Position numbers and translations under genes: made by a program
Source of the DNA: an uncultured Acetobacteraceae bacterium
GTDB taxonomy: Bacteria; Pseudomonadota; Alphaproteobacteria; Acetobacterales; Acetobacteraceae
Direction of reading: 5' to 3'
NCBI GenBank assembly: GCA_964249255.1
Contig: CAXUBN010000001.1
Span: 1-53,154, forward strand
DNA: 53,154 bases
Notes under the pieces: generated by a model
Told to the model about the DNA's origin: nothing
Seen by the model: only the letters and a program-made list of their open reading frames with translations
Databases searched by the model: none
Shown here: positions 11,250 to 42,654 of the stretch, piece after piece
Layout of the letters: each line of letters starts with the position of its first letter
Numbering within the stretch: the first letter of the stretch is position 1

Positions 11250-11264
11250 CTCCCATCACTCGTG

Positions 11265-11282: not shown

Positions 11283-11369
11283 TTTGGTATTTGTGCCACC
11301 CCGCCGCGGGAGATAGTGAAGGCTGGACGGAGGCGGCCTGGCCGCGACCCATTGCCGGAAGAACCACGC

Positions 11370-12869: not shown

Positions 12870-12933
12870 TCGGACGGGTGCGTACGGGATACCGGGTCCG
12901 TCCGGACCCCGGCTCCCAGGAAGGATGATCATC

Positions 12934-14082: not shown

Positions 14083-14113
14083 TCGGGCCGCCGTTTCCCC
14101 GGGAGAATTCGTC

Positions 14114-25947: not shown

Positions 25948-27122
25948 GGTTGCTCTACCTCGTCCACGATCTCGGCGATGCCGCTGTCGCGCGTCGGCGA
26001 CGCTTCCTGCAGGACGGTGGTGGACATGTCGTCCTGATCGGCTTCCGTCGGCATCGTGGCAGCCGTGATCACGGCGATATGGATGGCCTGTGCATCGGCC
26101 AGACCCGGAACGGCCGCATGCTGCGCCGAACCTTATCGACCATCCGTGCCATCGCCTTCTCGCGCGGTTGGCGCGATGAGCTTCTGCAAGCCGATGCCAT
26201 CATCGCGCGCTCCCTTGAGATGCTCCTGCTCGCGGTCGCCGTGCGCCGCATGGCCAGGGTGACTGTGCCGATCGCCTACGAGTGTCTGGATGTTCACCGC
26301 CTGATGACCCGGCCGGGCCTGATCGGCAGACTGCTACGCTGGACCGAGCGGCGCCTGCTCGATTCGACCAGCCTGCTGATCGTCAGTTCGCCAAGTTTCA
26401 TCGAGTCCTACTTCTCGCCCGTCCACGGTCGTCTCCCACCCTGGCGCTTGTTGGAGAACAAGCTCCTCGCCAGCGAAATGCCGGGAAGGACTGATGTCAT
26501 CCCTCCACCATCCCTCCCAGCCGCCCTGCCATGGCGGATCGGCTGGTTCGGCATCATCCGCTGCAAACGCAGCCTGGAACTGCTTGCCGCCCTGGCCCAG
26601 GCATCGAATGGTTGCATCGAGATCGTTATTCGTGGCCGTGTTGCGTATGACGTCATCCCCGATTTTGATGCCCAGATCGCCGCCATACCCGGGCTGATCT
26701 TCGGCGGTCCCTATGATCGCACGACGCAGCTGGCCGCCATCTATGGGCAGGTACATTTCAACTGGGCTATCGACTTCTACGAGGACGGTCTCAACTCCGC
26801 TTGGCTGCTACCCAACCGACTCTACGAGGGAAGCGCCTTCGGTGCGGTGCCGATCGCGCTGCGTGCGGTCGAGACTGGCCGCTGGTTATCCTCGCATGGC
26901 TGCGGCCTTCTGCTCGACCAACCGATCGAGCAGACGCTCCCCACACTGTTCGCCGGCATGATCCCCGCTGCCTTTGAAGCGGCGCGGGATCGTGTGTTGG
27001 CGCTGGATCGCGCAGCGTTGATCGAGACCACCACCACGGCCGCTTCCTTCATCCTGACGCTCAGCAGCCTTGCCCCGACGACCGGTGCCGTCTCCTCAAG
27101 CTTCGCCAAGGTGAGCGCCTGA
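25944..27122 (+). CDS. exoL: ExoL-like succinoglycan-type glycosyltransferase
   Basis: LYLVHDLGDAAVARR, YECLDVHRL, LENK, IGWFGIIRCKRS, HFNWAIDFYEDGLNSAWLLPNRLYEG. Confidence 0.8.
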   Translation: MRLLYLVHDLGDAAVARRRRFLQDGGGHVVLIGFRRHRGSRDHGDMDGLCIGQTRNGRMLRRTLSTIRAIAFSRGWRDELLQADAIIARSLEMLLLAVAVRRMARVTVPIAYECLDVHRLMTRPGLIGRLLRWTERRLLDSTSLLIVSSPSFIESYFSPVHGRLPPWRLLENKLLASEMPGRTDVIPPPSLPAALPWRIGWFGIIRCKRSLELLAALAQASNGCIEIVIRGRVAYDVIPDFDAQIAAIPGLIFGGPYDRTTQLAAIYGQVHFNWAIDFYEDGLNSAWLLPNRLYEGSAFGAVPIALRAVETGRWLSSHGCGLLLDQPIEQTLPTLFAGMIPAAFEAARDRVLALDRAALIETTTTAASFILTLSSLAPTTGAVSSSFAKVSA

Positions 27123-28153
27123 TGACTGCTTCCCGGCCATTCTTCTCGATCGTGATACCGACCCTGAACGAGGAGAACTACATCGAGCAAGCGCTGTCGT
27201 CGCTGCTCGCTCAGATCGTCGGTGACGAAGCGGAGATCCTCGTTCTTGATGGTGGCAGTCACGACCAAACCAAGAATATCGTCTTGAGGATCGCTGATGC
27301 GTATCCGATCGTGCGCCTGATCAGCAATCCGGGTCGTACTCAATCGGCTGCATGCAACCTGGCAGCAAAGCTGGCTGATCCGCGAAGCCGGATCCTGATC
27401 CGTGCCGATGCCCACGCCGCGTATCCGCAAAGTTTTCTTAGTCACGCCATCCAGGCCTTGCTGGAGACCGGCGCCACCTCCGTTGTCGTACCGATGCGCA
27501 CGGTGGGGATTAAGCCACTTCAACGGGCGATCGCAGCGACGCAGAACAGCAGTCTCGGCAACGGCGGATCTGGTCACCGGCGGATCGGCACATCGCGCTT
27601 CGTCGATCACGGTCACCATGCTGCATTCGATCTGGCATTCTTTCGCTCTCTCGGCGGCTATGATCCTGATTTTACTCATAACGAGGATGGTGAACTTGAC
27701 GTTCGCGGCCTCAAGGCCGGTGGTCGTATTTGGCTGTGCGCAGAGGCGGTGATCGATTACTTTCCACGAGCCAATTTTTCGCAACTTGCACGTCAGTACT
27801 TCCGCCATGGCCGCGGCCGGGCAAGGACCACTGGCAAGCACAGGCTGTCCTTAAAGCTTCGGCAATACCTGCCCCTGGTCATACTGATAAGCATGTTGGC
27901 CTGCCTCTTGGCTCCTGTCCTTCCATGGATCGTTCTTCCGGCGATGCTCTACCTGACTGCCTGTCTCGCATGGGGCACGTCACCCGCCATTAGGCGACGC
28001 GATCCAGCGCTTCTGCTGATGGGTCCGGCCGCGGTCGTCATGCATCTCTCTTGGGCGACAGGTTTCGTGGCGGGTTTTGCGCGTCATCGCCTGCATAAGC
28101 CATTCCTTAACTCACTGGCCGTAGAAGAGAACCGTAGCGTCGGCGTGAACTGA
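27122..28153 (+). CDS. exoA: ExoA-like GT2 glucosyltransferase
   Basis: IPTLNE, DGGS.D, RADAHA.YP, LGNGGSGHR, VDHGHHA, FTHNEDGELD, QYFRHGRGRA. Confidence 0.85.
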   Translation: MTASRPFFSIVIPTLNEENYIEQALSSLLAQIVGDEAEILVLDGGSHDQTKNIVLRIADAYPIVRLISNPGRTQSAACNLAAKLADPRSRILIRADAHAAYPQSFLSHAIQALLETGATSVVVPMRTVGIKPLQRAIAATQNSSLGNGGSGHRRIGTSRFVDHGHHAAFDLAFFRSLGGYDPDFTHNEDGELDVRGLKAGGRIWLCAEAVIDYFPRANFSQLARQYFRHGRGRARTTGKHRLSLKLRQYLPLVILISMLACLLAPVLPWIVLPAMLYLTACLAWGTSPAIRRRDPALLLMGPAAVVMHLSWATGFVAGFARHRLHKPFLNSLAVEENRSVGVN

Positions 28154-28182: not shown

Positions 28183-29343
28183 GTGGGTTATTCTCGACGC
28201 GCTGCCTATCTTGGATCAAGTATCTTGATGATCGCATGTTTGTCTGGCTGCGGCGATTTCTTGTCTGAGAGCGGGCCTGGTCGTGCGGCTGTTGTCGTCA
28301 ACGCCACAACGGTAGCCACCGCCCCGACACCGTTTCCATATCAACTGATCACCGTTAACGCCTCGACGCTGCCGGCACTCGATGCTCCAATCGAACGATC
28401 GCGTTTCAACTCGGCGCCGTCCGAGGGAGCGATCCAGGGTGCTATCGGTATCGGCGACGATATCGGCGTCACCATCTTCGAATCCGGTCCCGGTGGCCTC
28501 TTCATCACGGATCATCCGGAAAATCAGTCCGGCAACTCCATCACCCTTCCCCCACAACAGGTCGATCAAACAGGCAACATCGTCATTCCTTACGGCGGCG
28601 TTATTTCTGTCGTTGGTCTCACCCCAGCCGGCGTGCAACGTGTCATCGAGCGCAGGCTGGCCAACCGGGCCTTGGAGCCGCAGGTCGTTGTCACCATCCT
28701 GGCGCGGCGGTCGGGTATGATCAACGTTGCCGGCGACGTTGCGGGTGCGGCACGCTTCTCACTCGATCCTGGTGGCGAAACCATGCTCGGTGCCATCTCA
28801 AGAGCTGGAGGGCCTCGTTTCCCGGACTATGAGACCACCGTCATCCTCCATCGCGGCAGCACAAGGCAGGCAGTCAGGCTGTCTACAATCGTCGATCAGC
28901 CATCCCAGAACCTGTCGCTTGAGCCGGGTGACACGATCTACCTTACACATGACCCCGACTTCTTCCTCGCTATGGGTGCAACTGGTCAGGCAACGTCGCT
29001 CGGACCACTGGATCGACGGATCGCTTTCGGAGGTGACAGGATCACGCTTGCGGACGCGCTGGCCAAGGCAGGTGGCTTGGAAGATGATCGCGCGAATGCT
29101 CGGGCCTGCTTTGTTTATCGGCTTCAGCATGGTCAGGATGAAGGACTGAAGAAAGCCCTGCCAACAATCTACCTGACTGACCTACATGATCCGGTTGGAT
29201 ACTTCTATGCGAGCAAGTTCGTGATGCATCCGGAAGATGTAATCTTTGTCTCCAATGCTCCAGAAACCGATATTGCCAAGTTCCTGAACTTGGTTCTACC
29301 CGCAGCATACTCGGCTGCAGGCTTCAGCAGTGGCTTTAGATGA
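28183..29343 (+). CDS. wza: Wza/ExoF-like outer-membrane polysaccharide export lipoprotein
   Basis: Lipobox LSGC; IGIGDDIGVTIFE, VDQTGNIVIPYGG, EPQVVV, TLADALAKAGG, DVIFVSNAP. Confidence 0.88.
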   Translation: MGYSRRAAYLGSSILMIACLSGCGDFLSESGPGRAAVVVNATTVATAPTPFPYQLITVNASTLPALDAPIERSRFNSAPSEGAIQGAIGIGDDIGVTIFESGPGGLFITDHPENQSGNSITLPPQQVDQTGNIVIPYGGVISVVGLTPAGVQRVIERRLANRALEPQVVVTILARRSGMINVAGDVAGAARFSLDPGGETMLGAISRAGGPRFPDYETTVILHRGSTRQAVRLSTIVDQPSQNLSLEPGDTIYLTHDPDFFLAMGATGQATSLGPLDRRIAFGGDRITLADALAKAGGLEDDRANARACFVYRLQHGQDEGLKKALPTIYLTDLHDPVGYFYASKFVMHPEDVIFVSNAPETDIAKFLNLVLPAAYSAAGFSSGFR

Positions 29344-29410: not shown

Positions 29411-29662
29411 ATGGAAGACCGTCTCAGAGACATCATTGCGAAGTTTGGACGACTGCCCATCGCGATCAATACCTTGGCACCAGACGATGACCTCTACGAG
29501 GCGGGTCTCAGCTCGCTCGCCAGTGTCAATCTGATGCTTGCGGTTGAGGACGCCTTCGATATCGAGTTTCCGGACCATTTACTGACCCGGCGGACGTTCC
29601 AAAGCATTTCATCCTTGAGCAGCGTTGTGTCCAGTCTCAAGTCGGCTGCGGTTGCGTCTTGA
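29411..29662 (+). CDS. Stand-alone carrier protein, likely cognate of the amino acid:carrier protein ligase
   Basis: DLYEAGLSSLASVNLMLAVEDAFDIEFPD phosphopantetheine-Ser motif. Confidence 0.92.
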   Translation: MEDRLRDIIAKFGRLPIAINTLAPDDDLYEAGLSSLASVNLMLAVEDAFDIEFPDHLLTRRTFQSISSLSSVVSSLKSAAVAS

Positions 29663-30822
29663 AGAGTAGCCGTCCACTGACGGACCGGGCAAACGCGGCC
29701 GCTGCCGTTGCCGCCAGGTACGCCGATGCGGTTGATACTGAAGCTCGTTACCCGCTGGAGGCCATAACCGCCTTGCGGGATCTGAACCTACTCGGCTTGC
29801 TCGTTCCCGAACGCTGCGGCGGCCCAGGTGAATCGTTGGCTGACGTCGCCTTGGTCTGTCGCTCACTTGGCCGTGCATGCGGTTCGACCGCACTTATCTT
29901 TGCCATGCATCAGATCCAGGTCGCATGTGTGATTGCAGGTGGCGGTGAAACGGCTTGGTCGGACGGCTTTCTGAGGCGTCTTGCTCAAAACCAGTTGCTT
30001 CTGGCGTCAGTCACTTCCGAAATTGGCATCGGTGGAAATATTCGCGCCAGTATCTGTGCACCTGACTATGCGGGAAGTCGGCTTACATTGGCGAAGCGGT
30101 CATCGGCCATCTCCTATGGTGATCATGCCGACGCCTTGCTCGTGACGGCGCGGAGGAACATCAATTCTGCCCCTTCGGATCAAGTCATGATTCTTGCTGA
30201 GCGACATGATACGTCGTTGGTTGAGACGGGTCGGTGGGATACGCTCGGAATGCGCGGAACTGGAAGCAAGGCGTTCGACGTGAGCTTGACGGTCTCGTCT
30301 GAACAGCTTCTGCCGATCGCGTTTGGTGATGTTGCTCAGCATACCATGTTGCCAACATCTCACCTACTGTGGGGTGCGGCCTGGTTGGGTATTGCGTCTG
30401 ATGCTGCAGAAAGGGCACGTAACTTTCTTCGACCCCAGGCGCGGGAAGAACAAGGCGCTGCATCTCCTGCTGCGTTACGTTTTGAGAAGGCCGTATCACT
30501 TATAGCTACAATTCAAGATAGACTCGATCTAGTTACCAGCCAGTACGAGCGAAAGCAACAGGACGATCGCGACGGCCTATCGTTGAGCTTTTTAACAGAG
30601 GTTAATGGTCTGAAGATCATGGTATCCGAGGCAGCGCTGGAGGTCGTTCAGCACGCGTTGATGATATGCGGGTTTGCAGGTTATCAGTATGGCACTCCCT
30701 ACAGTATTGGCCGTCATCTACGAGACCTCCAAGCAGCGCCGCTAATGGTCAACAATGATCGTATTTCAAGCAACATCGCAACTATGCTTGTTGCGCAGCG
30801 TTCGTCATTGATAAGGACTTAA
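29659..30822 (+). CDS. Acyl-CoA/acyl-carrier-protein dehydrogenase family flavoprotein
   Basis: CGSTALIFAMH, SVTSE, WDTLGMRGTGS, ICGFAGY, RHLRD. Confidence 0.88.
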   Translation: MKSSRPLTDRANAAAAVAARYADAVDTEARYPLEAITALRDLNLLGLLVPERCGGPGESLADVALVCRSLGRACGSTALIFAMHQIQVACVIAGGGETAWSDGFLRRLAQNQLLLASVTSEIGIGGNIRASICAPDYAGSRLTLAKRSSAISYGDHADALLVTARRNINSAPSDQVMILAERHDTSLVETGRWDTLGMRGTGSKAFDVSLTVSSEQLLPIAFGDVAQHTMLPTSHLLWGAAWLGIASDAAERARNFLRPQAREEQGAASPAALRFEKAVSLIATIQDRLDLVTSQYERKQQDDRDGLSLSFLTEVNGLKIMVSEAALEVVQHALMICGFAGYQYGTPYSIGRHLRDLQAAPLMVNNDRISSNIATMLVAQRSSLIRT

Positions 30823-30824
30823 CA

Positions 30825-31733
30825 ATGCAAAAAGGGACCAGCTTCCGGGACGAGTTGATTGCTCATGGCGTCCTCGTTCCAAGCGGTGTGGATGGAGTTT
30901 ATGGTCGTAACGGGCTCTTTGAATCGATCGTTAACGGGATTGAGCAACTGATTACCCAGGTAGGACAGGACTATGGAGCTGAGGTCATCCGCTTTCCTCC
31001 TGCCATGCCCAAAAGCGTCATGGAAACCAGCGGATACCTGAACGGTTTTCCACATTTAGCCGGCACTATCCACTGTTTCTGTGGTGATGATCGAGCTCAT
31101 GCACGACTACTTGACGATCTAGCGACTGGCAAGAACTGGACAGTAGATCAACAATGCATCGACTTAACTCTTACCCCTGCTGCTTGTTATCCTGTATATC
31201 CCATGGTCGCCGCCAGGGGACAGTTGACGTCTTCAAGGCACATCTTTGATGTCTCATCATACTGTTTTAGACATGAGCCGTCACTTGATCCAGCTCGTAT
31301 GCAGATGTTTCGAATGCGGGAGTTTGTCTGCCTAGGTAGGCCGAAGAATGTTCAACAATTTCGCGATGATTGGCTGGAAGGAGGGCAGCAACTTATCAGA
31401 AAGCTTGAGCTACCGTTCTCTGTCGATTTGGCAAATGATCCATTTTTTGGTCGCGGTGGTACCTTCATGGCTAAGAGCCAACGTGAACAGGCGCTAAAGT
31501 TCGAGCTCTTAGTCCCGATCGTCAATGACGATCGTCCGACAGCCTGTTTAAGCTTTAACTATCACATGGAGCATTTCAGCGAGATCTGGAGGCTGACAAC
31601 TGATGACGGCGCTATGGCGCACACTGCTTGTGTCGGATTTGGTCTTGAGCGCTTGACTTTAGCGTTGTTACGCCGCCATGGTTTTGACTTGCGGTCTTGG
31701 CCCCGCCAAGTGAGAGATGAGTTGTGGCTGTAG
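30825..31733 (+). CDS. Amino acid--[carrier protein] ligase (truncated homolog of methanogen-type SerRS)
   Basis: SGYLNGFPHL, LTPAACYPVYP, CFRHEPS, RMQMFRMREFV, ANDPFFGRGG, LKFELL, SFNYH, TACVGFGLER; lacks a tRNA-binding domain; next to a carrier protein. Confidence 0.92.
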   Translation: MQKGTSFRDELIAHGVLVPSGVDGVYGRNGLFESIVNGIEQLITQVGQDYGAEVIRFPPAMPKSVMETSGYLNGFPHLAGTIHCFCGDDRAHARLLDDLATGKNWTVDQQCIDLTLTPAACYPVYPMVAARGQLTSSRHIFDVSSYCFRHEPSLDPARMQMFRMREFVCLGRPKNVQQFRDDWLEGGQQLIRKLELPFSVDLANDPFFGRGGTFMAKSQREQALKFELLVPIVNDDRPTACLSFNYHMEHFSEIWRLTTDDGAMAHTACVGFGLERLTLALLRRHGFDLRSWPRQVRDELWL

Positions 31734-32686
31734 AGCTCTTTAACGCCAGAGCTTTCAAGCCCCATCGCTTGCACAGCGTCGATCGGTCATGGCCCGAGAC
31801 CAACTGCTATGTCGACTTATGGATCGAGATACTGGCGTCATTGGACATGATGCCAGAAGCATGTTTTGGGTTTGCGATAACGCAAGATTTTGGCGCCGAT
31901 CAGTTTACTTTTCCAAAGCCCCCTCTCCAAGATCTTGAGTTACTTTATGGCCTAAGGATAAGAGAGCTGTCTCTATATGAAAGTCTAGAACATCATGTAG
32001 TGCAGCATCTTCGGTTGACTAACTTAATACTTCTTGAGGTCGATGCATTCTATCTGCCCGACACTTTTGCAACAACTTATCAGCAGGATCATACCAAGAC
32101 GACCATCGCTATAGATTATGTGAATCTAGAGAATCATACTTGCCGCTATTTTCATAATGCAGCCCGCGCAGAACTGTCTGGGAATGATTACATTGGGATA
32201 TTTCAGCTGAATCCTGACTATACCCGTCGTCGCGACATAATGTTTCCCTATCTTGAGGTTGTTGAGCGCCCACCGACTCAGATATCAGATGATAATTTGA
32301 TGCAGGTTGCTACCGAACTCTTGAAGACACATTTCAAACGACGCCCAAAATCCAATCCTTTCGAAACTTGGCGCCGTACCTTTGATCAACATCTAGACTC
32401 CCTTCTTTCTAATCCAAATTCTCTCCATACCTATGCCTTTCACTTTCCAAGACTAGCTGGATCGAATTTTGAAACGTTCTCCAATCATATTGATTGGCTT
32501 TTCCAGGGAGAAGTTGAACAGGCCGTAGCGAGCTGTCAGGCAATTGCACGAGTCACTAAGACGCTTCAATATCGGCTAGCGCGATCAGTTGCTCGGAGAA
32601 AGATGGATCATGCTAATGATTGTTTTGATCTGCTGGAACTTAACTATTCCAAGATAGTTTTTGAGTTAGGACAACAGCTTTCCTGA
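31724..32686 (+). CDS. DUF1839-like protein
   Basis: WPETNCYVDLWIE, DQFTFPKP, EVDAFYLPDT, YQQDHTKTTI, YFHN; family typically found beside aa:CP ligases. Confidence 0.78.
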   Translation: MAVELFNARAFKPHRLHSVDRSWPETNCYVDLWIEILASLDMMPEACFGFAITQDFGADQFTFPKPPLQDLELLYGLRIRELSLYESLEHHVVQHLRLTNLILLEVDAFYLPDTFATTYQQDHTKTTIAIDYVNLENHTCRYFHNAARAELSGNDYIGIFQLNPDYTRRRDIMFPYLEVVERPPTQISDDNLMQVATELLKTHFKRRPKSNPFETWRRTFDQHLDSLLSNPNSLHTYAFHFPRLAGSNFETFSNHIDWLFQGEVEQAVASCQAIARVTKTLQYRLARSVARRKMDHANDCFDLLELNYSKIVFELGQQLS

Positions 32687-32736
32687 CGCTGATGATGAAC
32701 ATCAGCATATTTGATATCAGTTAGAATGCGTGAGAT

Positions 32737-35208
32737 ATGCCTCTTCCGGTCGAGTCCTTCTCTCAGCAGCTTGATTCATCAGCCTTGATGCTACCACAGG
32801 CTCTTGAAGCGGACTGGTCTTTAATCTTGTTGCTGCCAGATGTTGTTCTACATCCCCGTAACCTACCTCAAATAAATGACTGGAGGCCGGCAAAGGCTCC
32901 TGGGAGTGCCTTCGAGGCAATACATGGTAGAGATGTAGACTTGCGTGGTCCTCTTACTCAATTGCATGATTATGACATATGGTATCGTACGTACATCGAC
33001 TTAAAGAAGGAAGACAAGCTCAAGTTTGATGGCTTGGCTGGCCTTGCCGAACTCTGGATTGATGATCAGCTAGTAGCATCAAGTGTAAATATGTACAGAC
33101 AGCTACTGGTGAATGTTCAGAATGACGGAAGGTCAGCAATTGCCATACGCTTCCGATCGCTAAACAAGGCGCTGCAGCAGGTAAAAAGCCGACCAGCGTG
33201 GCGGACAAAGTTAGTCAATTCAAATAATATAAGAATGTATCGGCAGACTTTACTGGGTCATATGCCAGGCTGGTGTCCAAATGTACACGCGGTGGGACCC
33301 TACCGACCTATCTATCATCTTAAGGAAAATAAAGTAATCGAAACGTGCACTATAGAAACCAAAATGCAGGGATGCTATGCAATCCTATCAGTGCAATTGC
33401 AGTTTCTACGCTTGTCCAATCCGGACATTCAGTTAGATGTTCAGGTGAGTAATCATATCATTCCGCTGATACGCTTAGGCGAGAAAAGTTTCGGCGTGAA
33501 GGTGACTCTGGATGATCTGGAACCGTGGTGGCCACACACTCATGGTGATCCCAAACTTTACGATCTTTTACTCAGCGATGGTCATTCTCAAATAGTTCTT
33601 GGAAGAGTAGGGTTTAGGAGTCTCTCAACTCTTAAAGGTAGCAATGGTAATGAATTCCAGATTGAGGTGAACGGTCTATCAATATTTTGTCGTGGTGCCT
33701 GCTGGACCAGCGCTGATTTGGCTGGATTGGATGGTGATAGGTTAACTTACCGCGACTGGTTAGTTCGTGCGATGGATGCCGGTATGAATATGATCCGCAT
33801 TGGCGGGACAATGTTATATGAATCAAAGCATCTACATGATTTGTGTGATGAACTTGGGATGATGGTTTGGCAAGATCTTATGTTTGCTAGTCTCGACTAT
33901 CCAGTAGAAGATCCAGAGTTTAAGGAAGATGTCCTCACAGAAGTTGCGGAACTTCTTAAGCGAACGAGCGCAAGTCCCTCCCTGACAGTGATATGTGGTG
34001 GCTCAGAGATTGCACAGCAAGCTGCCATGTTTGGATTGCCAAGAGATCGACGGAGCATGTATTTCTTCGATACATTATTGGCTGGCTTCATATCAAGTTC
34101 TAGGTCTGACGTAATTTATGTTCCCAACTCACCATGGGGGGGCAATTTACCCTTTTGCACAGATTTCGGGCTAGCACACTATTACGGAGTGGGCGCCTTT
34201 AAAAGGCCGCTGGAGGACGCACGTCGGGCAAATGTGAGTTTTGCGGCAGAATGCCTTGCCTTCGCCAACTTAGGGGATGTCAAGGCGTTGACATGCAGTG
34301 CTCTTCTAGAGACTCCACAAGATCCTGGCACAAGTTGGAATTTTGCTGACACAAGAGATTACTACCTAAAGCAGATTTATGATGCTGATCCAATGCAACT
34401 TAGAAGTGAGGATCCAGCTCGCTATCTATATTTATCACAAGTGACAACATCTGATATCATGGAGTCGGTTTTTTCTGAGTGGCGCAGACCGAAATCGAAT
34501 TGCTCGGGAGGCTTGGTGTGGCAACTACAAGATCTTGCCGCGGGCAATGGATGGGGAGTCATCGACTGCAACGGCCAACCCAAGTCTGTATGGTATGGTC
34601 TCCGTCGCGTCCTCGCACCTATCCAGGTTCTTATATCAGATGAAGGGGGGAATGGCCTTGAGATTCATGTTCTAAATGAAAAGCCTGTAGCACTAACAGC
34701 AATTCTGCATCTGATCTGTATTAATAGGTCCTCGGCTTCGGTAATTAAGTCGGATAAGCTCGTTTCACTCCAGGCTCACAGTGATATGTCTCTATCAAGC
34801 TACAGCCTTTTGGATAACTTCTTCGATATTACGAAGTACTTTAGGTTTGGGCCATCAGAACATGAGGTAACTGTAGCCAAGCTTGTATGTAATGAAACTG
34901 GGAAAACGTTATCTCAGGCTTTTCATTTCCCGTCTCGTCGAACCCTTCCCCTCGAGGATATTGGCCTTGACCTCAAGCTCATGCATAGAGACGATACCTG
35001 GGAACTTCAAATAGAGACGAAACTTTTTGCGCAGTCTATAAAAATTGATGTAGAAGGCTATTGTCCAGAAGATAATTGGTTTCATATGATGCCTCTTGAT
35101 AAGCGCGTCATCAGGCTAATATCGATTAAAGGATCAATGTATTTACCAAGTGTAAGCCTTACAGCATTAAATAGTAGGAAAACATACTTCTTAAAAGGTG
35201 CTTTATGA
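32737..35208 (+). CDS. GH2 beta-mannosidase-like glycoside hydrolase (no signal peptide)
   Basis: FDGLA, PWWPHTHGDPKLY, GFR, IFCRGACW, GMNMIRIGG, CDELGMMVWQDLMFA, CGGSE, HYYG, FAAEC, WQLQD. Confidence 0.85.
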   Translation: MPLPVESFSQQLDSSALMLPQALEADWSLILLLPDVVLHPRNLPQINDWRPAKAPGSAFEAIHGRDVDLRGPLTQLHDYDIWYRTYIDLKKEDKLKFDGLAGLAELWIDDQLVASSVNMYRQLLVNVQNDGRSAIAIRFRSLNKALQQVKSRPAWRTKLVNSNNIRMYRQTLLGHMPGWCPNVHAVGPYRPIYHLKENKVIETCTIETKMQGCYAILSVQLQFLRLSNPDIQLDVQVSNHIIPLIRLGEKSFGVKVTLDDLEPWWPHTHGDPKLYDLLLSDGHSQIVLGRVGFRSLSTLKGSNGNEFQIEVNGLSIFCRGACWTSADLAGLDGDRLTYRDWLVRAMDAGMNMIRIGGTMLYESKHLHDLCDELGMMVWQDLMFASLDYPVEDPEFKEDVLTEVAELLKRTSASPSLTVICGGSEIAQQAAMFGLPRDRRSMYFFDTLLAGFISSSRSDVIYVPNSPWGGNLPFCTDFGLAHYYGVGAFKRPLEDARRANVSFAAECLAFANLGDVKALTCSALLETPQDPGTSWNFADTRDYYLKQIYDADPMQLRSEDPARYLYLSQVTTSDIMESVFSEWRRPKSNCSGGLVWQLQDLAAGNGWGVIDCNGQPKSVWYGLRRVLAPIQVLISDEGGNGLEIHVLNEKPVALTAILHLICINRSSASVIKSDKLVSLQAHSDMSLSSYSLLDNFFDITKYFRFGPSEHEVTVAKLVCNETGKTLSQAFHFPSRRTLPLEDIGLDLKLMHRDDTWELQIETKLFAQSIKIDVEGYCPEDNWFHMMPLDKRVIRLISIKGSMYLPSVSLTALNSRKTYFLKGAL

Positions 35209-36980
35209 TACCGACAGCGTTCGACGGTTGTTTTGGATGGTTTCATCGCGGTTGCGGGGCAACTGGTATCGTATTATGTGCCGCATTTGGTCATGAGAAC
35301 ATGACGGCTCATCATGGCTGGCGAAAGCTTGCTGAGAAGCTGGCTCTAGAAGGTCATCATGTCTTGAGATTTGACTATCTTAGCACTGGTGATTCTATCG
35401 GAGTGGAAGGTGATCCAGGTCAGTTCGAAGCATGGAAGGTAAGCATACTCTCAGCAACACGACATCTGATAAATATATCAGGCAGCAAAAAAATAGTGCT
35501 GATTGGGTTGCGGTTTGGCGCTGCATTGGCATTACTTTTATCCAAAAATATTCCAGAGGTTGTCGGAGTTGGCTGTCTTGCTCCTATTATTGTTGGTAGA
35601 ACTTATATACGTGAGTTACGACTGCGTGCTAACGGCTGGCATGAGGCAAATTTGCATAGTGTGTCCGCCGATAAGACCACGCACCTAGATGTACTTGGAG
35701 AGCGGTTGTCGGAAGAAACGACGCGGATGATCTCAAATGTTGATCTTCGTGTTTTTAAGTCATCGGTTAAGAACATTCTAATAATGTGTGCGCAAGAAGA
35801 GCCTGTTATGTTGACTCTCGTCAATAATTTAAAATTACAAGGGTGTCGAGTAGCAATTGAGAAATTTCGTGGATATGAGAAGTATCTTGAAGACTCTATT
35901 GCTAGCGTTGTTCCTTATGAGTCCTTTGAGAAAGTTATAGCTTGGTGTTGCCAAATTCTTCCGTCTGAAAAACTTTTGGATCAGCCAACCCAAGATAGAA
36001 AGTCATTAATATCTTACGCTATCGATACTGTATCTGATAACTTACATTTCAGAGAAAAAGCTGTCAGCTTCCAGTCTAAAGATAGTATATTTGGGATCTT
36101 ATGTGTACCCTGCCAATTACCTGTTGATGACCGTGCGGTTATCATGCTTAACACGGGCTTTGGCCGTCATACGGGCGACGGCCGCGTTTTTACAACGCTC
36201 GCTCGCCACTTAGCGCAAACGGGTGTCACATCATTACGTATGGATTTCGCGGGATTTGGCGATAGTGAAACTGACAACTGTGAAGTTAATCCTTATGCCT
36301 CTAGATACTCAACTGATGTCCAGGCAGCTATAACATTTATGAGAAACTTAGGCTGTATTAATATAATTCTTGTGGGTATTTGCTCGGGTGCTTTTAATGC
36401 GTTTCATGCTGCTCTTCATGATGATCGCGTGCATGGACTGATTATGGTTAATACTCAGCATTTTGCTTGGAAAACCGGTTCATCGCTGAAGGTGGAGAAC
36501 AAAAGACAACGACGTCCATTAAGTTTTTACACAAAAGCTATCAGTCAGCCTTATGCTTGGCGGCGAATCATTCGAGGCGAAGTAGCAATAGTTTCAATCG
36601 TAATCGCTCTCTGCACAAGGCCGTGGAAAAATATTCTCAATAAAGTCACGCTTTTTCTTGAAAAGGTCACAGGGTTTCAAACCTCAATTGGTCAAGTCAA
36701 TAGGTGGTTTACTGCCCTAACAGGCCGCGGTGTCCAAATAGAGCTTGTGTATAGCGCTAATGATCCAGGGTTGGAAAAGTTATATACTTATTTTGGAAGA
36801 AGAGGAAAGTCTCTTAGTAAGTTCGATGATATAAATCTTAGGGTTATTGAGAATGCAGACCATGCGTTGTTTGACTACTCTGCCCGCTCCCAATTCATCG
36901 AGATGGTAACTCAGTTCATGACGTGTCGGATAGCACAATCACCGGCAACGGATAAATTACGAGGCATAAACCTGACTTAG
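35205..36980 (+). CDS. Tandem two-domain alpha/beta hydrolase
   Basis: Domain 1: RFDYLSTGDS, GLRFGA; domain 2: RMDFAGFGDS, GICSGA, ADHAL. Confidence 0.8.
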   Translation: MIPTAFDGCFGWFHRGCGATGIVLCAAFGHENMTAHHGWRKLAEKLALEGHHVLRFDYLSTGDSIGVEGDPGQFEAWKVSILSATRHLINISGSKKIVLIGLRFGAALALLLSKNIPEVVGVGCLAPIIVGRTYIRELRLRANGWHEANLHSVSADKTTHLDVLGERLSEETTRMISNVDLRVFKSSVKNILIMCAQEEPVMLTLVNNLKLQGCRVAIEKFRGYEKYLEDSIASVVPYESFEKVIAWCCQILPSEKLLDQPTQDRKSLISYAIDTVSDNLHFREKAVSFQSKDSIFGILCVPCQLPVDDRAVIMLNTGFGRHTGDGRVFTTLARHLAQTGVTSLRMDFAGFGDSETDNCEVNPYASRYSTDVQAAITFMRNLGCINIILVGICSGAFNAFHAALHDDRVHGLIMVNTQHFAWKTGSSLKVENKRQRRPLSFYTKAISQPYAWRRIIRGEVAIVSIVIALCTRPWKNILNKVTLFLEKVTGFQTSIGQVNRWFTALTGRGVQIELVYSANDPGLEKLYTYFGRRGKSLSKFDDINLRVIENADHALFDYSARSQFIEMVTQFMTCRIAQSPATDKLRGINLT

Positions 36981-37069: not shown

Positions 37070-37783
37070 TACAACGAGAAGATTGCGGTTAGACAAATGG
37101 CCGACATGCAAGTGTGAGCGCAGCGGTCGTGATGCACGACGATTCGTCGCCATCATTAGATCGCGACCGAACATGTTTTCGACCTTGCGGTGCTGACGGT
37201 AGAACGTGCGGCAGCATGGGCGCTGGACCTAGTGGCTCTCGCGCGGTGGGATGCAGAGCTTGAAGCGTCGGACGCGCAGAGCGTTGCAGAAGCCGTCGCT
37301 GTCGTAGCCGTAGTCGCCGATTGAAGTTCAGGCCGCCCTCGGTGCACCCGATCGGCAGGGATCAGCATAGATGTTGACTCCTCCTGGAGCGGGCCGGCGG
37401 CCGTGCGGTGGGCCTTGGGGTGGGTGCTGTCGATCATCAGCCAGTCAGGTTCGCCCGCACGGCCCGCCAGACCGGCGAAGAAGCGGTTGAACATGCTGAG
37501 GCGGCTCCAGCGGAAGTAGCGGCTGGAGAGTTTTTTGTGCGGCCTGTAGGCGACCGGGGCATCAAGCTAGCGCAGGCCGTTGCGGATGGCGTGCAGGATG
37601 TCGCTGATGACGCACTGGTGGTCGGCGCGCGGCATACCACGGAACAATGAGAAGTAGGGCTGGATCCGGCGCAACTGCGCTTGCGACAGCCAGAACAGGT
37701 CACTCATGGCAACACCTCCGATTACCAGGAGACCATGCAACCAGATCAACCGCTAGAACTCGATTAACAGATCCCGAGCCTAG
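37070..37783 (-). mobile_element. Decayed IS5-family (IS427-like) element
   Basis: MSDLFWLSQAQLRRIQPYF..NGLR*..RWSRL..MIDSTH.KAHRTAA, later RKVENMFGR and DRCAHTCMSAICL; internal stop, frameshifts and deletion; CTAG-flanked end near 37780. Confidence 0.85.
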
Positions 37784-37803
37784 GCTCAGAAGCCCTCACA
37801 CGG

Positions 37804-38220
37804 CTTAGAGTGCCTAACAGAACAGGCTGATCTGGCGAAGGCGGACGAGGGCGCAGCCAAGGGCGGTGAAGGCCTGGTAGATGTCGGCCCTGCGTTCGTG
37901 GCGCACGGCAAGGTGGCGGTGGCGGTTCAGCCAGGCGTGGGTGCGTTCGACAACCAAGCGGTAGCGGCCAAGACGCTGGCGGCTCTCGGTGTGCCTCTGG
38001 CGTCGACCGCGATAGGTCGCTCGGTGCCCGGCTTGCCACGGTCGGTCGGGTTTGGCCCCGTGGCAGATCCCCCTTTCTGGGACAGACACGCTGCCTAGCG
38101 CCACCCGGCGCTAGTCGATCTGCCGTACCGCTTGCAAATGCTCCAGGAGCACCCGGTTCAGCGCTATCCAGACCCTGGCCTCATGCCAATCCCACAAACG
38201 TTGCCAATAGCTCATACCCG
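37804..38220 (-). mobile_element. Second decayed IS5-family transposase fragment
   Basis: LGRYRLVVERTHAWLNRHRHLAVRHERRADIYQAF C-terminal motif; upstream WQRLWDWHEARVW..VLLEHL..QID* fragment; the middle of the DDE region appears deleted. Confidence 0.85.
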
Positions 38221-38838: not shown

Positions 38839-40278
38839 ATGGGTGTCAACATCTCAGCACTGGGTGCCAGTCCTTTGGTGTCTGGCCGGTCCATCAAGCG
38901 ACACCGGACATTCCATCTTACCCAACTGACCCTAATCATAGCCAGTGGGATGGTTCAAGCCGTCTTAGTCATGGCTGGAGCAAATGCTGCGAAACTTATC
39001 TCACCGCACTTGGCTGAGAATTATTCTATATATGATTTTGCTTTGACATGCATAATATTACTCACTTTTTTAAGTGTTGCTAGGAACTCACTTTTCAAAT
39101 TCAAAAATTCTGTTGTAACATTAGTCTGGGCGGCCTTGCTCACCGGGTTTGCAACAACATGTCGTCATCATCTCGAAGACCTCGCGGCCTTAACTATTTG
39201 GTTTCTTGTGGTTCAGCTTCTGACGACGACAGTAAACTCTGTGACCGAAAAGCTACGAAACAGGATCCTTGACACATCATCCCGGTCTCGAACGATTGCT
39301 TTCCTTGGTAATAGCCAATCTGCAGCCATGATGCTGACACAGCTTCAGCAAGACCGTAATTCCCGTGTACACGTAATTGGTTTTTTTGACGATCGCTTGA
39401 ACCGCCCTGGGCCATTAAGTGGAGTTGTCCCATGTCTGGGAACGATCAACGATTTAGTCAGCTACATCCACGATGCTGAGTTGTCAGAGGTCTACATGGC
39501 CCTGCCATGGTCCGCTGGCGAGCGAATCTCTCATCTCCTTGAACAACTCCGGTTCCTGCCCCTAACGGTTCGGCTGGTACCTGATCATGTTCCGCCAGCA
39601 CTCCCAGGGCGAGGAGACGGTCAGCTGTATGGGGTTGTCATGCCGACGCTAATGATTCCCCCATTTTCGACCGCCAATGCCCTATTTAAACGTTCTATTG
39701 ATGTTGTTGCAGCATTGTTTCTTCTTGTCCCGCTTATTCCCTTGTTTACTGTGGTTGCAATACTCTTGAAGTTGGACAGTGCAGGACCAGTCTTCTTTCG
39801 TCAGACCAGATCAGGACAATTCGGCCGTCCATTCCGGATTTTCAAATTTCGTAGTCTTCACGTGGCCCAGGCTGATACGGCTGCCGAAACTCTAGTTGTA
39901 GCGGGTGATCGCCGGGTAACCCGCGTTGGACAGGTGATACGCAAATACTCAATCGACGAGCTACCGCAAATTTTTAACGTCTTGCTTGGTCAGATGTCTT
40001 TAGTAGGCCCTCGGCCCCATGCACCACGTGCCAAGGCGGATGGTCGGATTTATGCTGAGGTCATGCCGGAATACATGATGCGATATCGGGTCAAACCCGG
40101 AATGACCGGCTGGGCACAAGTCAATGGCTGGCGTGGCAATACAGACACTGAGGAACAGCTCCGAAAGCGAGTTGAATTTGACTTTCAGTATATTGGAAGA
40201 TGGTCTTTGAAAAAGGATTTAGAAATCATTCTGCGAACAGTCCCAGCCATGCTGCTTCCACCAGCGCAAAATGTATAG
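38839..40278 (+). CDS. wcaJ: Undecaprenyl-phosphate hexose-1-phosphate transferase (WcaJ/GumD-type priming GT)
   Basis: GFFDDR, KRSID, GPVFFRQ, FKFRS, RKYSIDELPQIFNVLLGQMSLVGPRP, VKPGMTGWAQVNGWRG. Confidence 0.92.
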   Translation: MGVNISALGASPLVSGRSIKRHRTFHLTQLTLIIASGMVQAVLVMAGANAAKLISPHLAENYSIYDFALTCIILLTFLSVARNSLFKFKNSVVTLVWAALLTGFATTCRHHLEDLAALTIWFLVVQLLTTTVNSVTEKLRNRILDTSSRSRTIAFLGNSQSAAMMLTQLQQDRNSRVHVIGFFDDRLNRPGPLSGVVPCLGTINDLVSYIHDAELSEVYMALPWSAGERISHLLEQLRFLPLTVRLVPDHVPPALPGRGDGQLYGVVMPTLMIPPFSTANALFKRSIDVVAALFLLVPLIPLFTVVAILLKLDSAGPVFFRQTRSGQFGRPFRIFKFRSLHVAQADTAAETLVVAGDRRVTRVGQVIRKYSIDELPQIFNVLLGQMSLVGPRPHAPRAKADGRIYAEVMPEYMMRYRVKPGMTGWAQVNGWRGNTDTEEQLRKRVEFDFQYIGRWSLKKDLEIILRTVPAMLLPPAQNV

Positions 40279-40374
40279 ATACTTATCATATTGAATGGTC
40301 AGTGCTTTACCTAGAGTGCAAGACGACAGGTTGTTGTCTTGCCTCCACACCATCGGAACCGGGATAAAGTTAGA

Positions 40375-42654
40375 ATGGAAGCTATTATATCAACGAAACA
40401 CGAACCGTTTGGTGACGAAGTGCCGGAACCTCACTTGACCTCGATGCCAAATAATCCTTGCCCCATTGTCAGCGTCATCATGGCTAACCATAACGGCGGC
40501 AGTTTCATCGACGATGCTCTGGCTTCATGCCGCCGACAAACTCTTAAAGACATCGAGATCATCGTCATTGATGACGCTTCGACGGACAATAGCGTTGAAC
40601 GCATCGAGTGGTTCGTCCGTCAGGATGCCAGGATAATCCTGATTCGGATGACGACACAGATGGGACCGGCAGAGGCTAGAAATCAGGGTCTCCTGACTGC
40701 CAGGGGTACATGGCTTGCAGTCATGGACAGTGATGACATCATGCATCCGCAGCGACTGTCGCAACTCGTAGCGGCTGGAATACTCTACAGCGCAGATGTC
40801 GTAGCAGACAACCAGCTGGTCTTTGACAATGATCGCTTGGCTTCTGCGCGGCCGCTTCTTCCAGACAGAACGTCCCCGTTCAATGGGCCAGTTTCTATCA
40901 CAGATTATATATATTCTAATTGTCTATCACAAAAGTCGATACCTCTTGGTTACTTAAAACCTCTTATACTTAGTTCTGTTATCAAGAAAGGTACATATCT
41001 CTACAACACTACGCTTCAGATAGCGGAAGATTACGATCTTGTAGCTCGACTTCTCTTGGATGGAGCCACCTTCCGCGTGGTTCCTCAAATGACATATTTC
41101 TATCGTCGTCATTCAAAGTCTACCTCACATCGTCTGACAAGAACGGCGCTCGTGTCGATGTTGGCAGCCAATGACATTCGTGATGATCGATATGCTATCG
41201 GCGCTCGCTCCTCGACTGCGGTTCACGATGCCCTATCATGTCGTCATAAGTCGATCCAGAAAGCCATCGCCTTTGAAGATTTGGTATCAACTATCAAGTC
41301 GGGAAGATACCTGGAGGCGTTAAGGCACTGCGTGCGGAGGCCTCACGTTGTCAGATTGCTCATGACTCCGTTGCGCGATCGTCTACGTCGATCAATCATG
41401 TCACGGAAAAGTCGATCTCTATCCCCGGAGAGGACGAAACGGATCACTCTCCTGTCTCGCCAGCGCGTGGTTGGTGTCACGAACGGTAGTTCGGTGTATC
41501 TACTTGGCCTCTGCAAGGCGTTGCGTCATGCTGGCTACGACGTCGATCTAATTTCACCCTCGCCAGCGATGTTCGGCCGCTGGCCGTTTCTCAGGCTTGA
41601 TCGTAGCATGGACGTGTTTGGATCGATCCGAATCCGAGGGTCGTTCCATGTAGGTCACATCGTTGTTGCTAGAGATCCGCGTATCGCTATGCGCGCGACG
41701 GTTGGTATGATCTCTCGCCTTCTGAGCCGACTACATATGCCGCATAAGCTTACCGAGAAGAAGGCTCCCCATGCGATCGCGGTTCCCTTGACGAATGCGG
41801 ATCGCATTTTCATTGCGAACTCGTCCCAGAAATCCACGGTGATACTCGCTGATTATGCTTTCCTTAACGAAGCTATACCGTTCATGCTTCAACCGACCGT
41901 ATCAAGTGCCGTCATTATGCACGACCTATTTTTCAAGCAGGATCAGCGTCGGACCGCTGCTCCCGTTGATCGAGATACCGAAATGGAGCTGCTCGATCTG
42001 GCAGATATGGTCATCGCAATCCAGACGGATGAGGAGCAAGTCGTCAGGCAAAATCTTCCCGAAAAACCAGTCATCCTCGTACCGATGGCGGTATCACCGG
42101 TGAGCGATGCGCAGCCAGGCAAAGATGCTACCCTGTTGTTCGTCGGAAGCAACACGACACCGAACATCGACGGCATCAACTGGTTCCTCACGGACGTATG
42201 GCCTTCAGTCCTTGAACTTCATCCGGATGCCCACCTACACATCGCCGGAACCTGCTGTGGCAGTCTGGCCCACGTACCAGCCAACGTCATTCTTCTCGGA
42301 CGAGTCGATGATCTGGAAGAAGCCTATGGTCACGCTGGCGTCGTAATCTCACCCTTGCGTTCAGGTTCCGGCCTCAAGATCAAGTTGATTGAGGCGATGG
42401 GTCGAGGTAAGGCGGCCATCGTCACCGGGACAACCCTTCAAGGGGTACACCACCTCGTCGGGCATGCTGTCATGGAAGTCAATACTGCTGAGGAGTTTGT
42501 CAGGGCTATCGGTGGCTTACTTCATGATCCTGTGGAACGAGCCCGACTTGGCGGCGAGGCCCTCGTGATCGCGACAACACATTTTTCACCATCGGCCTGC
42601 TATCGGGATCTGCTGACCTTTGTTCGCAGCGCAGACGAGTATCGATCCCGCTGA
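40375..42654 (+). CDS. Bifunctional glycosyltransferase, GT2 (ExoO/ExoU-like) fused to GT4 (start uncertain)
   Basis: N-terminal DDASTD, GPAEARN, MDSDD, GYLKP, AEDY, YRRH; C-terminal FVGSN..PNIDG..WF and SPLRSGSGLKIKLIEAM. Confidence 0.88.
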   Translation: MEAIISTKHEPFGDEVPEPHLTSMPNNPCPIVSVIMANHNGGSFIDDALASCRRQTLKDIEIIVIDDASTDNSVERIEWFVRQDARIILIRMTTQMGPAEARNQGLLTARGTWLAVMDSDDIMHPQRLSQLVAAGILYSADVVADNQLVFDNDRLASARPLLPDRTSPFNGPVSITDYIYSNCLSQKSIPLGYLKPLILSSVIKKGTYLYNTTLQIAEDYDLVARLLLDGATFRVVPQMTYFYRRHSKSTSHRLTRTALVSMLAANDIRDDRYAIGARSSTAVHDALSCRHKSIQKAIAFEDLVSTIKSGRYLEALRHCVRRPHVVRLLMTPLRDRLRRSIMSRKSRSLSPERTKRITLLSRQRVVGVTNGSSVYLLGLCKALRHAGYDVDLISPSPAMFGRWPFLRLDRSMDVFGSIRIRGSFHVGHIVVARDPRIAMRATVGMISRLLSRLHMPHKLTEKKAPHAIAVPLTNADRIFIANSSQKSTVILADYAFLNEAIPFMLQPTVSSAVIMHDLFFKQDQRRTAAPVDRDTEMELLDLADMVIAIQTDEEQVVRQNLPEKPVILVPMAVSPVSDAQPGKDATLLFVGSNTTPNIDGINWFLTDVWPSVLELHPDAHLHIAGTCCGSLAHVPANVILLGRVDDLEEAYGHAGVVISPLRSGSGLKIKLIEAMGRGKAAIVTGTTLQGVHHLVGHAVMEVNTAEEFVRAIGGLLHDPVERARLGGEALVIATTHFSPSACYRDLLTFVRSADEYRSR

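What the first reader, a model, noticed from the sequence alone, without database searches (positions are those of the whole stretch)
29411..36980. Amino acid:carrier-protein ligase cassette embedded in an exopolysaccharide operon: candidate polysaccharide aminoacyl/acyl decoration system
Seen: one co-directional, tightly packed run (overlaps or gaps under 70 bp) of wzx-exoL-exoA-wza-carrier protein-ACAD-aa:CP ligase-DUF1839-GH2-double hydrolase. Established: SerRS-like aa:CP ligases of Bradyrhizobium and Agrobacterium load small amino acids (Gly/Ala/Ser) onto a cognate carrier protein; to my knowledge the downstream product is unresolved. Inference: an amino acid is activated, loaded, modified by the ACAD and transferred onto the EPS repeat unit. 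This would give the orphan ligase system a function as a tRNA-independent, Dlt-like glycan tailoring pathway.
Basis: partly seen in the sequence, partly recalled or inferred. Interest (0 to 1): 0.88.

Follow-up and report, generated by a model that had tools for sequence, protein, structure and literature searches.

The report
Amino-acid carrier cassette inside polysaccharide operon
Six tightly packed genes, predicted to load a small amino acid onto a carrier protein, sit in the middle of a slime-polysaccharide operon; the gene set is widespread and known but its product is not, and partner-gene patterns and predicted structures suggest it likely attaches an amino-acid-derived group to the polysaccharide.

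Summary
Observation confirmed: carrier protein, ACAD-like flavoenzyme, SerRS-like aa:CP ligase, DUF1839, GH2 and a fused double hydrolase lie inside a Wzx/Wzy operon that IS remnants split at 37-38 kb. The five-gene core is in print (2023) and nearly invariant; its product is unknown. This scan reported it at least eight times on other DNA. Results here: DUF1839 folds like carrier-dependent amide ligases (CcbD Z 19, CtaG Z 16) and is predicted to dock the carrier (0.66, best control 0.03). The fused hydrolase has an invariant Cys/His, occurs in 5 of 6 ligase genomes versus 0 of 394 others, and pairs with other carrier-loading systems, often beside wzx. The EPS link recurs but is not obligate: 27 of 80 loci. 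Best model (0.55): an oxidised Ala/Ser/Gly-derived unit is built on the carrier and esterified by the hydrolase to the lipid-linked repeat unit in the cytoplasm. The cassette has no DltB/DltD, so it is not a Dlt system. Burkholderia's Bep polymer shows no substituent, but alkali extraction would have removed esters. The GH2 role is unexplained.

The parts
24403..25947 (+). Wzx flippase, first gene of the run
   Evidence: PF13440 E 7e-22
25944..27122 (+). ExoL-like glycosyltransferase
   Evidence: 45% to annotated S. meliloti exoL
27122..28153 (+). GT2 glycosyltransferase, ExoA-like (label recalled)
   Evidence: PF00535; 41-49% hits in rhizobial records
28183..29343 (+). Wza/OPX export lipoprotein
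   Evidence: PF02563, SLBB
29411..29662 (+). Dedicated carrier protein; Ser35 is the predicted phosphopantetheine site
   Evidence: PRK07081 113 bits over cut-off 72; S35 invariant in 55 of 55
29659..30822 (+). ACAD-fold flavoenzyme without the canonical catalytic Glu; invariant His84, His235, Asp367
30825..31733 (+). SerRS-like amino acid:[carrier protein] ligase; Gly271 where Bll0957 has Ala
   Evidence: PRK07080 475 bits; PDB 3mey E 6e-88
31724..32686 (+). DUF1839, papain-like; predicted carrier-dependent amide ligase (Cys28, Thr127, His144)
32737..35208 (+). GH2 beta-mannosidase-like protein; both catalytic Glu kept, sugar-binding site altered, no membrane segment
   Evidence: PDB 5n6u E 1e-43
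35205..36980 (+). Fused double alpha/beta-hydrolase: N half GxRxG (likely inactive), C half GxCxG with Cys393 and His553; predicted carrier-to-glycan acyltransferase
   Evidence: TIGR03101/TIGR03100; invariant residues in 38 of 38
37150..38110 (-). Insertion-sequence remnants that split the operon
   Evidence: DDE_Tnp_1_2 E 7e-6 on 37814-38104; 37150-37710 read as transposase-like by eye only, no Pfam hit
38839..40278 (+). WcaJ-like priming glucose-1-phosphate transferase
   Evidence: TIGR03023 387 bits, cut-off 411; TIGR03025 over cut-off
40339..42654 (+). GT2-GT4 fusion
42703..44742 (+). Wzc-like co-polymerase
   Evidence: PF02706, PF13807
44803..46080 (+). Wzy-like polymerase
   Evidence: PF04932
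23262..24293 (-). Divergent GT4 glycosyltransferase, conserved at this place in congeners

Best explanation
The cassette likely builds a small amino-acid-derived acyl unit on its own carrier protein and likely esterifies it to the lipid-linked repeat unit of the exopolysaccharide on the cytoplasmic side, before Wzx flips it. Step 1 (strong homology): the ligase loads Ala, Ser or Gly on the carrier's Ser35 arm. Step 2 (inferred): the ACAD-fold enzyme oxidises the tethered residue to a dehydro, imino or keto acyl form, using His instead of Glu as base. Step 3 (predicted from fold and docking): DUF1839 takes an acyl group from the carrier on Cys28 and forms an amide, most simply with a second carrier-bound amino acid, so the product stays a thioester. 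Step 4 (inferred): the fused hydrolase takes the unit on Cys393 and passes it to a sugar hydroxyl. The GH2 would trim or recycle a sugar intermediate; this is the weakest step. Where the cassette stands alone, it would serve a polysaccharide locus elsewhere through the hydrolase.
For: (1) Core synteny among loci with room: carrier 74 of 74, ACAD 76 of 77, DUF1839 74 of 76, GH2 71 of 72, hydrolase 45 of 68. (2) The DUF1839 model (pLDDT 94.6) matches CcbD (Z 19.2, rmsd 3.3, 283 aligned), AziU3 (17.9, 4.1, 281) and CtaG (15.9, 3.9, 274); the next hit is 8.5. CcbD and CtaG act on carrier-bound substrates (PMC12865890 passages). (3) The carrier-DUF1839 complex scores 0.66 against a best control of 0.03; 116 of 157 solved and 2 of 215 mismatched pairs reach the mark; runs agree in at least 95% of contacts, partner pLDDT at least 87; Ser35 touches Gln282 and the interface includes residues 19-25. 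A CcbD-PCP complex is solved, so the pass may show likeness only. (4) The fused hydrolase occurs in 5 of 6 genomes with an over-cut-off ligase and in 0 of the other 394 in one 400-genome sample (only 3 candidates scored per genome). It is full length in 36 of 39 chosen ligase genomes, and in the same 11 of 21 congeners as the ligase. (5) Away from the cassette the hydrolase lies in Wzx/Wzy clusters in five of six annotated records (not). It pairs with other loaders: ACP + TIGR03098-like ligase + TIGR03099-like decarboxylase, and ligase + carrier + NRPS condensation domain, where the C domain stands in DUF1839's place. (6) Wzx/Wzy hallmarks lie within about 10 kb in 27 of 80 loci, needing 7 changes on the ligase tree, at least 4 forced. 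Independent cases: Burkholderia bep-type clusters and the actinomycete Tsukamurella. (7) All 9 of 21 congeners with the exoL-like gene have the ligase about 5 kb away. (8) In the B. pseudomallei bec cluster an insertion in the ACAD gene cut biofilm from 1.25 to 0.84, against 0.43-0.66 for six other bec genes, and made colonies smooth (PMC5507470 Table 1). That this gene is the cassette ACAD is my inference from gene order.
Against: 53 of 80 loci (32 of 55 full-length) show no hallmark; Azospirillum, Alsobacter, Hyphomicrobium, most Methylobacterium and most Caballeronia carry the cassette alone, as does congener G442. On the strict markers, without the window's lineage, enrichment is modest: 3 of 33 lineages against 2.2% background, p 0.036; 2 of 17 full-length, p 0.053. 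Of 17 detached hydrolase regions only 6 had a confirmed wzx/wzy/wzc neighbour, 3 had glycosyltransferases only and 8 had none found. Hydrolase and ligase are separable: G464 and G470 have only the hydrolase, G458 only the ligase. The Bep repeat is an unsubstituted Gal-Glc-Gal-Man tetrasaccharide with no amino sugar (PMC7084887), which argues against an amide on that backbone; an ester would have been lost in 0.3 M NaOH. Ten smooth-colony insertions in B. cenocepacia all fell in bcam1330-1341 (PMC3584217), and the B. pseudomallei screen missed becF, the likely carrier gene. The GH2 is as tightly linked as DUF1839 but has no firm place in the model.
Confidence: 0.55

Rival explanations
1. The cassette makes a soluble small molecule: DUF1839 amidates a free amino sugar or amine as CcbD, BtrH and AsbE do, the GH2 matures or releases the glycoside, and the hydrolase is a thioesterase. 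The EPS neighbourhood reflects shared biofilm regulation.
For: The nearest fold, CcbD, acylates an amino sugar, and BtrH and AsbE use free acceptors. GH2 linkage is 71 of 72, with Asn changed to Ser before the acid/base Glu in 60 of 64. Most cassettes stand alone. Crp-type regulators flank it in several lineages. The carrier-ACAD-ligase trio serves an ATP-grasp/thioesterase small-molecule cluster in Priestia.
Against: No glycosyltransferase or exporter travels with the core. The hydrolase has a Cys nucleophile and sits in Wzx/Wzy clusters with unrelated loaders. The cassette lies inside the operon with overlapping stops and starts.
Confidence: 0.25
2. The acyl unit goes on another envelope glycan or glycolipid (LPS, capsule anchor, periplasmic glucan or protein glycan), not on the neighbouring EPS.
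For: Stand-alone cassettes are the majority. One detached hydrolase abuts lpxB (L124). In Mycetohabitans the six genes follow an acyltransferase near an ArnT-like gene, with no EPS genes in 30 kb.
Against: Block co-occurrence with the exoL operon in the genus. Repeated insertion into unrelated Wzx/Wzy clusters.
Confidence: 0.12
3. The cassette is a passenger here with no functional tie to the EPS genes, or this copy is decaying.
For: GC falls from 65% (wzx) to 43% (hydrolase), while congener orthologs are mostly 57-73%; the window ligase is on a long branch; IS remnants split the operon.
Against: All six ORFs are intact with every predicted catalytic residue. The same position is held in nine related loci.
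Confidence: 0.08

Closest known systems
aa:CP ligase operons of Bradyrhizobium (Bll0957; PDB 3mey, 4h2w) and Agrobacterium (Atu2573, name recalled); five-gene order described by Ozhelvaci and Steczkiewicz 2023 (PMC10318531)
   Same: Ligase over family cut-off, cognate PRK07081 carrier, ACAD, DUF1839 and GH2 in the same order.
   Different: Embedded in an exo-like Wzx/Wzy operon; sixth gene fused hydrolase, not named in the 2023 text; Gly rather than Ala at the Bll0957 specificity position.
Burkholderia bep (B. cenocepacia) and bec (B. pseudomallei) biofilm EPS clusters
   Same: Cassette plus a TIGR03100-type hydrolase inside a Wzx/Wzy cluster.
   Different: Unrelated glycosyltransferase set; hydrolase lies by wzx, about 19 kb from the ligase; the papers read do not discuss the cassette and propose a quality-control role for the hydrolase.
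CtaG/CcbD/BtrH/AsbE papain-like thiotemplated amide ligases (PMC12865890)
   Same: Bipartite papain plus helical fold, N-terminal Cys, predicted carrier docking.
   Different: Triad is Cys/Thr/His rather than Cys/His/Asp; 9-10% identity; acceptor unknown.
Dlt D-alanylation (DltA/B/C/D)
   Same: Amino acid activated and carried on a dedicated carrier towards a surface polymer.
   Different: Class II aaRS-like loader, no MBOAT or DltD, an oxidation step, cytoplasmic enzymes only. A sister ligase clade does sit with a DltB-like MBOAT.
PEP-CTERM/exosortase A-associated hydrolase 1 and 2 with ACP, AMP ligase and decarboxylase (TIGR03098-03101)
   Same: Same two hydrolase families beside EPS genes and a carrier protein.
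   Different: Fused here, below both cut-offs, with a different loader.

Membership tests
aa:CP ligase (PRK07080) | Score over curated cut-off; SerRS core without tRNA-binding domain | tested here: met
   475 bits versus 357; 302 aa; matches only the core of type-2 SerRS
aa:CP ligase (PRK07080) | Cys-Glu-Cys zinc site | tested here: met
   C121, E166, C269 in 77 of 77; their role as zinc ligands is recalled
aa:CP ligase (PRK07080) | Adjacent cognate carrier protein | tested here: met
   PRK07081 over cut-off; adjacent in 74 of 74; a PPTase exists elsewhere in the genome
aa:CP ligase (PRK07080) | Aminoacylation activity and amino acid specificity | not testable with these tools
   Gly271 in 76 of 77 suggests relaxed Ala/Ser/Gly use, from a recalled mutagenesis paper that was not held
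CtaG/CcbD/BtrH-type amide ligases | Papain-like domain plus helical domain | tested here: met
   Z 19.2, 17.9, 15.9 over 274-283 residues
CtaG/CcbD/BtrH-type amide ligases | Cys-His-Asp triad in canonical order | tested here: not met
   Invariant C28, T127, H144; C(T/S)H variant described in PMC10318531. Lowers membership, not 'works like'.
CtaG/CcbD/BtrH-type amide ligases | Binds a carrier protein | tested here: inconclusive
   Model passes, 0.66 versus 0.03, but a like complex is solved
Dlt system | MBOAT (DltB) and DltD | tested here: not met
   No such gene among window ORFs 23-46 kb or recurring neighbours of 80 loci
Dlt system | Adenylation-domain loader (DltA) | tested here: not met
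   Loader is class II aaRS-like
Classical acyl-CoA dehydrogenase | Catalytic Glu in helix G or the C-terminal loop | tested here: not met
   Ser and Val/Ile at the aligned positions (position labels recalled); fold met, Z about 42, but monooxygenases tie
GH2 beta-mannosidase | Acid/base and nucleophile Glu | tested here: met
   E424 and E505 in 64 of 64
GH2 beta-mannosidase | Mannose-binding residues (NE motif Asn, WDW motif) | tested here: not met
   Ser in 60 of 64; PGW in place of WDW (residue roles recalled)
Wzx/Wzy-dependent EPS locus | Priming GT, GTs, Wzx, Wzy, Wzc, Wza | tested here: met
   All present in 23262-46080

The most novel reading that the evidence does not exclude
A tRNA-synthetase-derived mini assembly line builds an oxidised dipeptide-like unit (for example pyruvoyl- or dehydroalanyl-alanine) and esterifies it to biofilm polysaccharide. 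The Cys-type double hydrolase (TIGR03100/03101, BCAM1334) is a general plug-in carrier-to-glycan acyltransferase that accepts units from several swappable loaders. Such esters were missed because these polymers are extracted in alkali.
Probability: 0.3. Interest if true: 0.82.

Novelty: new member of a known kind. Interest (0 to 1): 0.55.

Why it matters
The role of aa:CP ligases was still called unknown in a 2022 review. This analysis names the likely transfer enzymes, their catalytic residues and an ester-versus-amide test, so the question can be settled with a few mutants and a gentle polymer preparation. If the model holds, it adds a thiotemplated route for tailoring biofilm polysaccharides in many soil, plant and lichen bacteria, and gives a function to DUF1839 and the orphan TIGR03100/03101 hydrolases. 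This copy itself is ordinary for the family.

Tried and rejected
All-against-all BLAST of raw ORFs timed out; replaced by a home-made gene caller, which missed low-GC genes, so synteny counts come from tblastn. The binomial tests printed used a wrong lineage number and are discarded; one search has the right ones. Promoter and terminator scans gave no more than shuffles (13 versus 11.0; 10 versus 12.7). No RNA holder listed. DUF1839 profile against PDB sequences found nothing. The ACAD fold search did not separate dehydrogenases from monooxygenases. ESM Atlas gave only generic hydrolase clusters. My recalled link to Agrobacterium unipolar polysaccharide was not borne out: no 'Atu257' in that preprint's main text (its supplements are closed). 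A recalled 'bepM-Q' naming found no paper. Searches that found no paper assigning a product; the library lacks most subscription journals. Mocibob 2010 and the 2014 specificity paper were not held, so I could not check an earlier scan note that the sugar-decoration idea is already in print. Supplements of PMC5507470 could not be read; they hold per-gene data for the likely ligase, DUF1839 and GH2 insertions. Rejected: catabolic role (ATP-costly loading on a private carrier, two Cys enzymes); true Dlt membership (no MBOAT); amide on the Bep backbone (no amino sugar, would survive alkali).
Full report
Observation. The ten co-directional ORFs exist as described, with gaps of -10 to 67 bp from wzx to the double hydrolase. 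Pfam and NCBIfam support each label; the ligase (475 bits, cut-off 357) and the carrier (113, cut-off 72) pass curated cut-offs. The closest ligase loci are Acetobacteraceae, including Lichenicola. The operon is larger than the finding: in congeners L002-L005 and L007 the hydrolase is followed at once by wcaJ, a GH16 and a GT2-GT4 fusion. In the window, transposase remnants fill part of an 1858-bp gap before wcaJ, GT2-GT4, wzc and wzy. The cassette is therefore in the middle of a complete Wzx/Wzy locus.

What is known. The order carrier, ACAD, ligase, DUF1839, GH2 is described in the supplement of PMC10318531, which classes DUF1839 as papain-like with a C(T/S)H site; the main text guesses it processes cell-wall glycans in an acyl-CoA-dependent way (passages and supplement 3 part 1). 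A 2022 review says the role of aa:CP ligases is unknown (PMC9437257 passages). The primary ligase papers were not held. Eight earlier notes of this scan describe the same cassette on other DNA with similar guesses; they are not independent support.

The core is one unit. In 80 loci from one genome per species (best 80 of 225), counting only loci with room, the ligase has the carrier in 74 of 74, ACAD in 76 of 77, DUF1839 in 74 of 76, GH2 in 71 of 72 and the hydrolase in 45 of 68. It is patchy: 6 of 400 sampled Alphaproteobacteria have an over-cut-off ligase, and 11 of 21 congeners.

The EPS link is real but not obligate. A wza, wzc, wzx, wzy or priming transferase lies within about 10 kb in 27 of 80 loci, 23 of 55 full-length; wza or priming transferase alone in 19 of 80. 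My seeds came from these loci and can miss distant wzx or wzy. Background for the two strict markers, from five genomes, is 0.6-4.1%, mean 2.2%. By hand-assigned lineage, leaving out the window's own, 3 of 33 are strict-positive (p 0.036) and 7 of 33 positive on five markers (p 0.001 at an assumed 5%, 0.014 at 8%). On a quick tree of 75 of the 80 ligases plus the window's, the label needs 7 changes, at least 4 forced by well-supported branches. Annotated records add Burkholderia bep-type clusters and Tsukamurella, where ligase, carrier, PPTase and a hydrolase homolog lie among glycosyltransferases, wzx and a priming transferase with no ACAD, DUF1839 or GH2 in 25 kb. Rhizobium, Phyllobacterium and Mycetohabitans records show the cassette without EPS genes. 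In the genus, all 9 genomes with the exoL-like gene have the ligase about 5 kb away, none of 10 ligase-negative genomes has it, and 2 ligase-positive genomes lack it (kin are not independent).

The double hydrolase is the likely glycan-facing part. Its N half has Arg at the nucleophile elbow; its C half has invariant Cys393, Asp552 and His553 in 38 of 38, and a basic amphipathic helix near 470-490 that could bind membrane. In the same 400 genomes the fused form occurs in 5 of the 6 ligase genomes and none of the other 394 (three candidates scored per genome). It is full length in 36 of 39 chosen ligase genomes. Exceptions exist both ways (G464, G470, G458). Of 20 regions fetched around apparently detached copies, 3 proved to adjoin cassette genes. 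Of the other 17, 6 had wzx, wzy or wzc close by, 3 glycosyltransferases only and 8 nothing found (I scanned 46 chosen neighbours, not all). In five of six annotated records it lies in a Wzx/Wzy cluster. It also pairs with other loaders: ACP, AMP ligase and PLP decarboxylase in Shinella, and a divergent SerRS-like ligase, carrier and NRPS condensation domain in Acetobacteraceae. B. cenocepacia BCAM1334 is a TIGR03100 protein in the core bep cluster (PMC3584217 passages).

DUF1839 is a predicted carrier-dependent amide ligase. Its model matches CcbD, AziU3 and CtaG at Z 19.2, 17.9 and 15.9, far above the next hit at 8.5. CtaG joins substrates on two carriers, and CcbD acylates an amino sugar (PMC12865890 passages). 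The carrier docks in the model with score 0.66 against 0.03 for the best control (116 of 157 solved and 2 of 215 mismatched pairs reach the mark); a CcbD-PCP structure exists, so this may be likeness. Its triad differs (Cys28, Thr127, His144). That a condensation domain replaces it in a sister architecture fits an amide-forming step upstream of the hydrolase (inference).

Other enzymes. The ligase has Gly271 in 76 of 77 sequences where Bll0957 has Ala; by recall this widens specificity from Gly to Ala and Ser. The ACAD lacks Glu at both canonical base positions, has invariant His84 and His235, and hits amino-sugar N-oxygenases (3m9v, DnmZ) about as well as dehydrogenases, so its reaction is open. 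The GH2 keeps both catalytic Glu but has an altered sugar site and no membrane segment; its role is unexplained.

Published phenotypes cut both ways. In B. pseudomallei 15 of 18 bec genes were hit in a biofilm screen; the ACAD insertion gave 0.84 against 1.25 for wild type and 0.43-0.66 for six other bec genes; becF, likely the carrier, was not hit (PMC5507470 passages and section 17; supplements unseen). In B. cenocepacia ten insertions all fell in bcam1330-1341. The Bep repeat is unsubstituted, but was extracted in 0.3 M NaOH and read in NaOD (PMC7084887 passages). This excludes an amide on that backbone and leaves an ester open. A mild phenotype fits decoration rather than backbone synthesis.

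Verdict. A real, ordinary copy of a known cassette of unknown product, in one of its EPS-embedded forms. Best model, 0.55: a carrier-bound, oxidised amino-acid unit is esterified to the repeat unit by the Cys hydrolase. Rivals: soluble glyco-metabolite 0.25, other envelope target 0.12, passenger or decay 0.08. It works like Dlt in logic but is not a member. Interest 0.55, because an open question since 2010 becomes directly testable, while the locus and most of the idea are not new.

Noticed in passing
L150:8064-11117; L152:7849-10530: A sister clade of SerRS-like ligases (below cut-off) lies directly behind a DltB-like MBOAT, with a carrier protein after it in L150: a closer Dlt analogue than the window's cassette.
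   Followed up: partly
L142:7930-12460; L144; L145:8883-13426: Second architecture in Acetobacteraceae: double hydrolase, divergent ligase, carrier, stand-alone NRPS condensation domain.
   Followed up: partly
L154:7217-11586; L156:7700-10575: Divergent ligases beside an AurF-like N-oxygenase, with O-methyltransferase and nitronate monooxygenase in L154: a likely nitro or azoxy small-molecule pathway.
   Followed up: no
L084:10145-18692 (Priestia plasmid): acpS, carrier, ACAD, ligase, exporter, ATP-grasp ligase, thioesterase, alanine permease and an extra alanine racemase: likely a dipeptide natural product using the same trio.
   Followed up: partly
L148:8259-11099: Over-cut-off ligase and carrier beside a divergent AlgX-like SGNH protein, without ACAD, DUF1839, GH2 or hydrolase.
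   Followed up: no
window 24403-46080: V-shaped GC profile, 65% to 43% to 60%, lowest at the IS remnants, in a roughly 70% GC contig; congener orthologs stay mostly at 57-73% and identity to the nearest locus falls from 87% (carrier) to 49% (hydrolase).
   Followed up: partly
window 19193-22016: AIR-carboxylase-like, ATP-utilising and nickel-insertion genes in a row, resembling larB, larE and larC of nickel-pincer cofactor synthesis (names recalled).
   Followed up: no
window 9816-15037: Methylcitrate cycle genes (PrpD, citrate synthase, lyase) with a short-chain fatty acyl-CoA regulator; ordinary.
   Followed up: no
window 8520-9677: An AT3-family membrane acyltransferase 15 kb upstream of the operon; no link shown.
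   Followed up: no
L123, L127, L138; L088, L090, L091: Detached hydrolase clusters often hold a WecG/TagA transferase or a polysaccharide deacetylase, so an amino-sugar acceptor is possible in those polymers.
   Followed up: no
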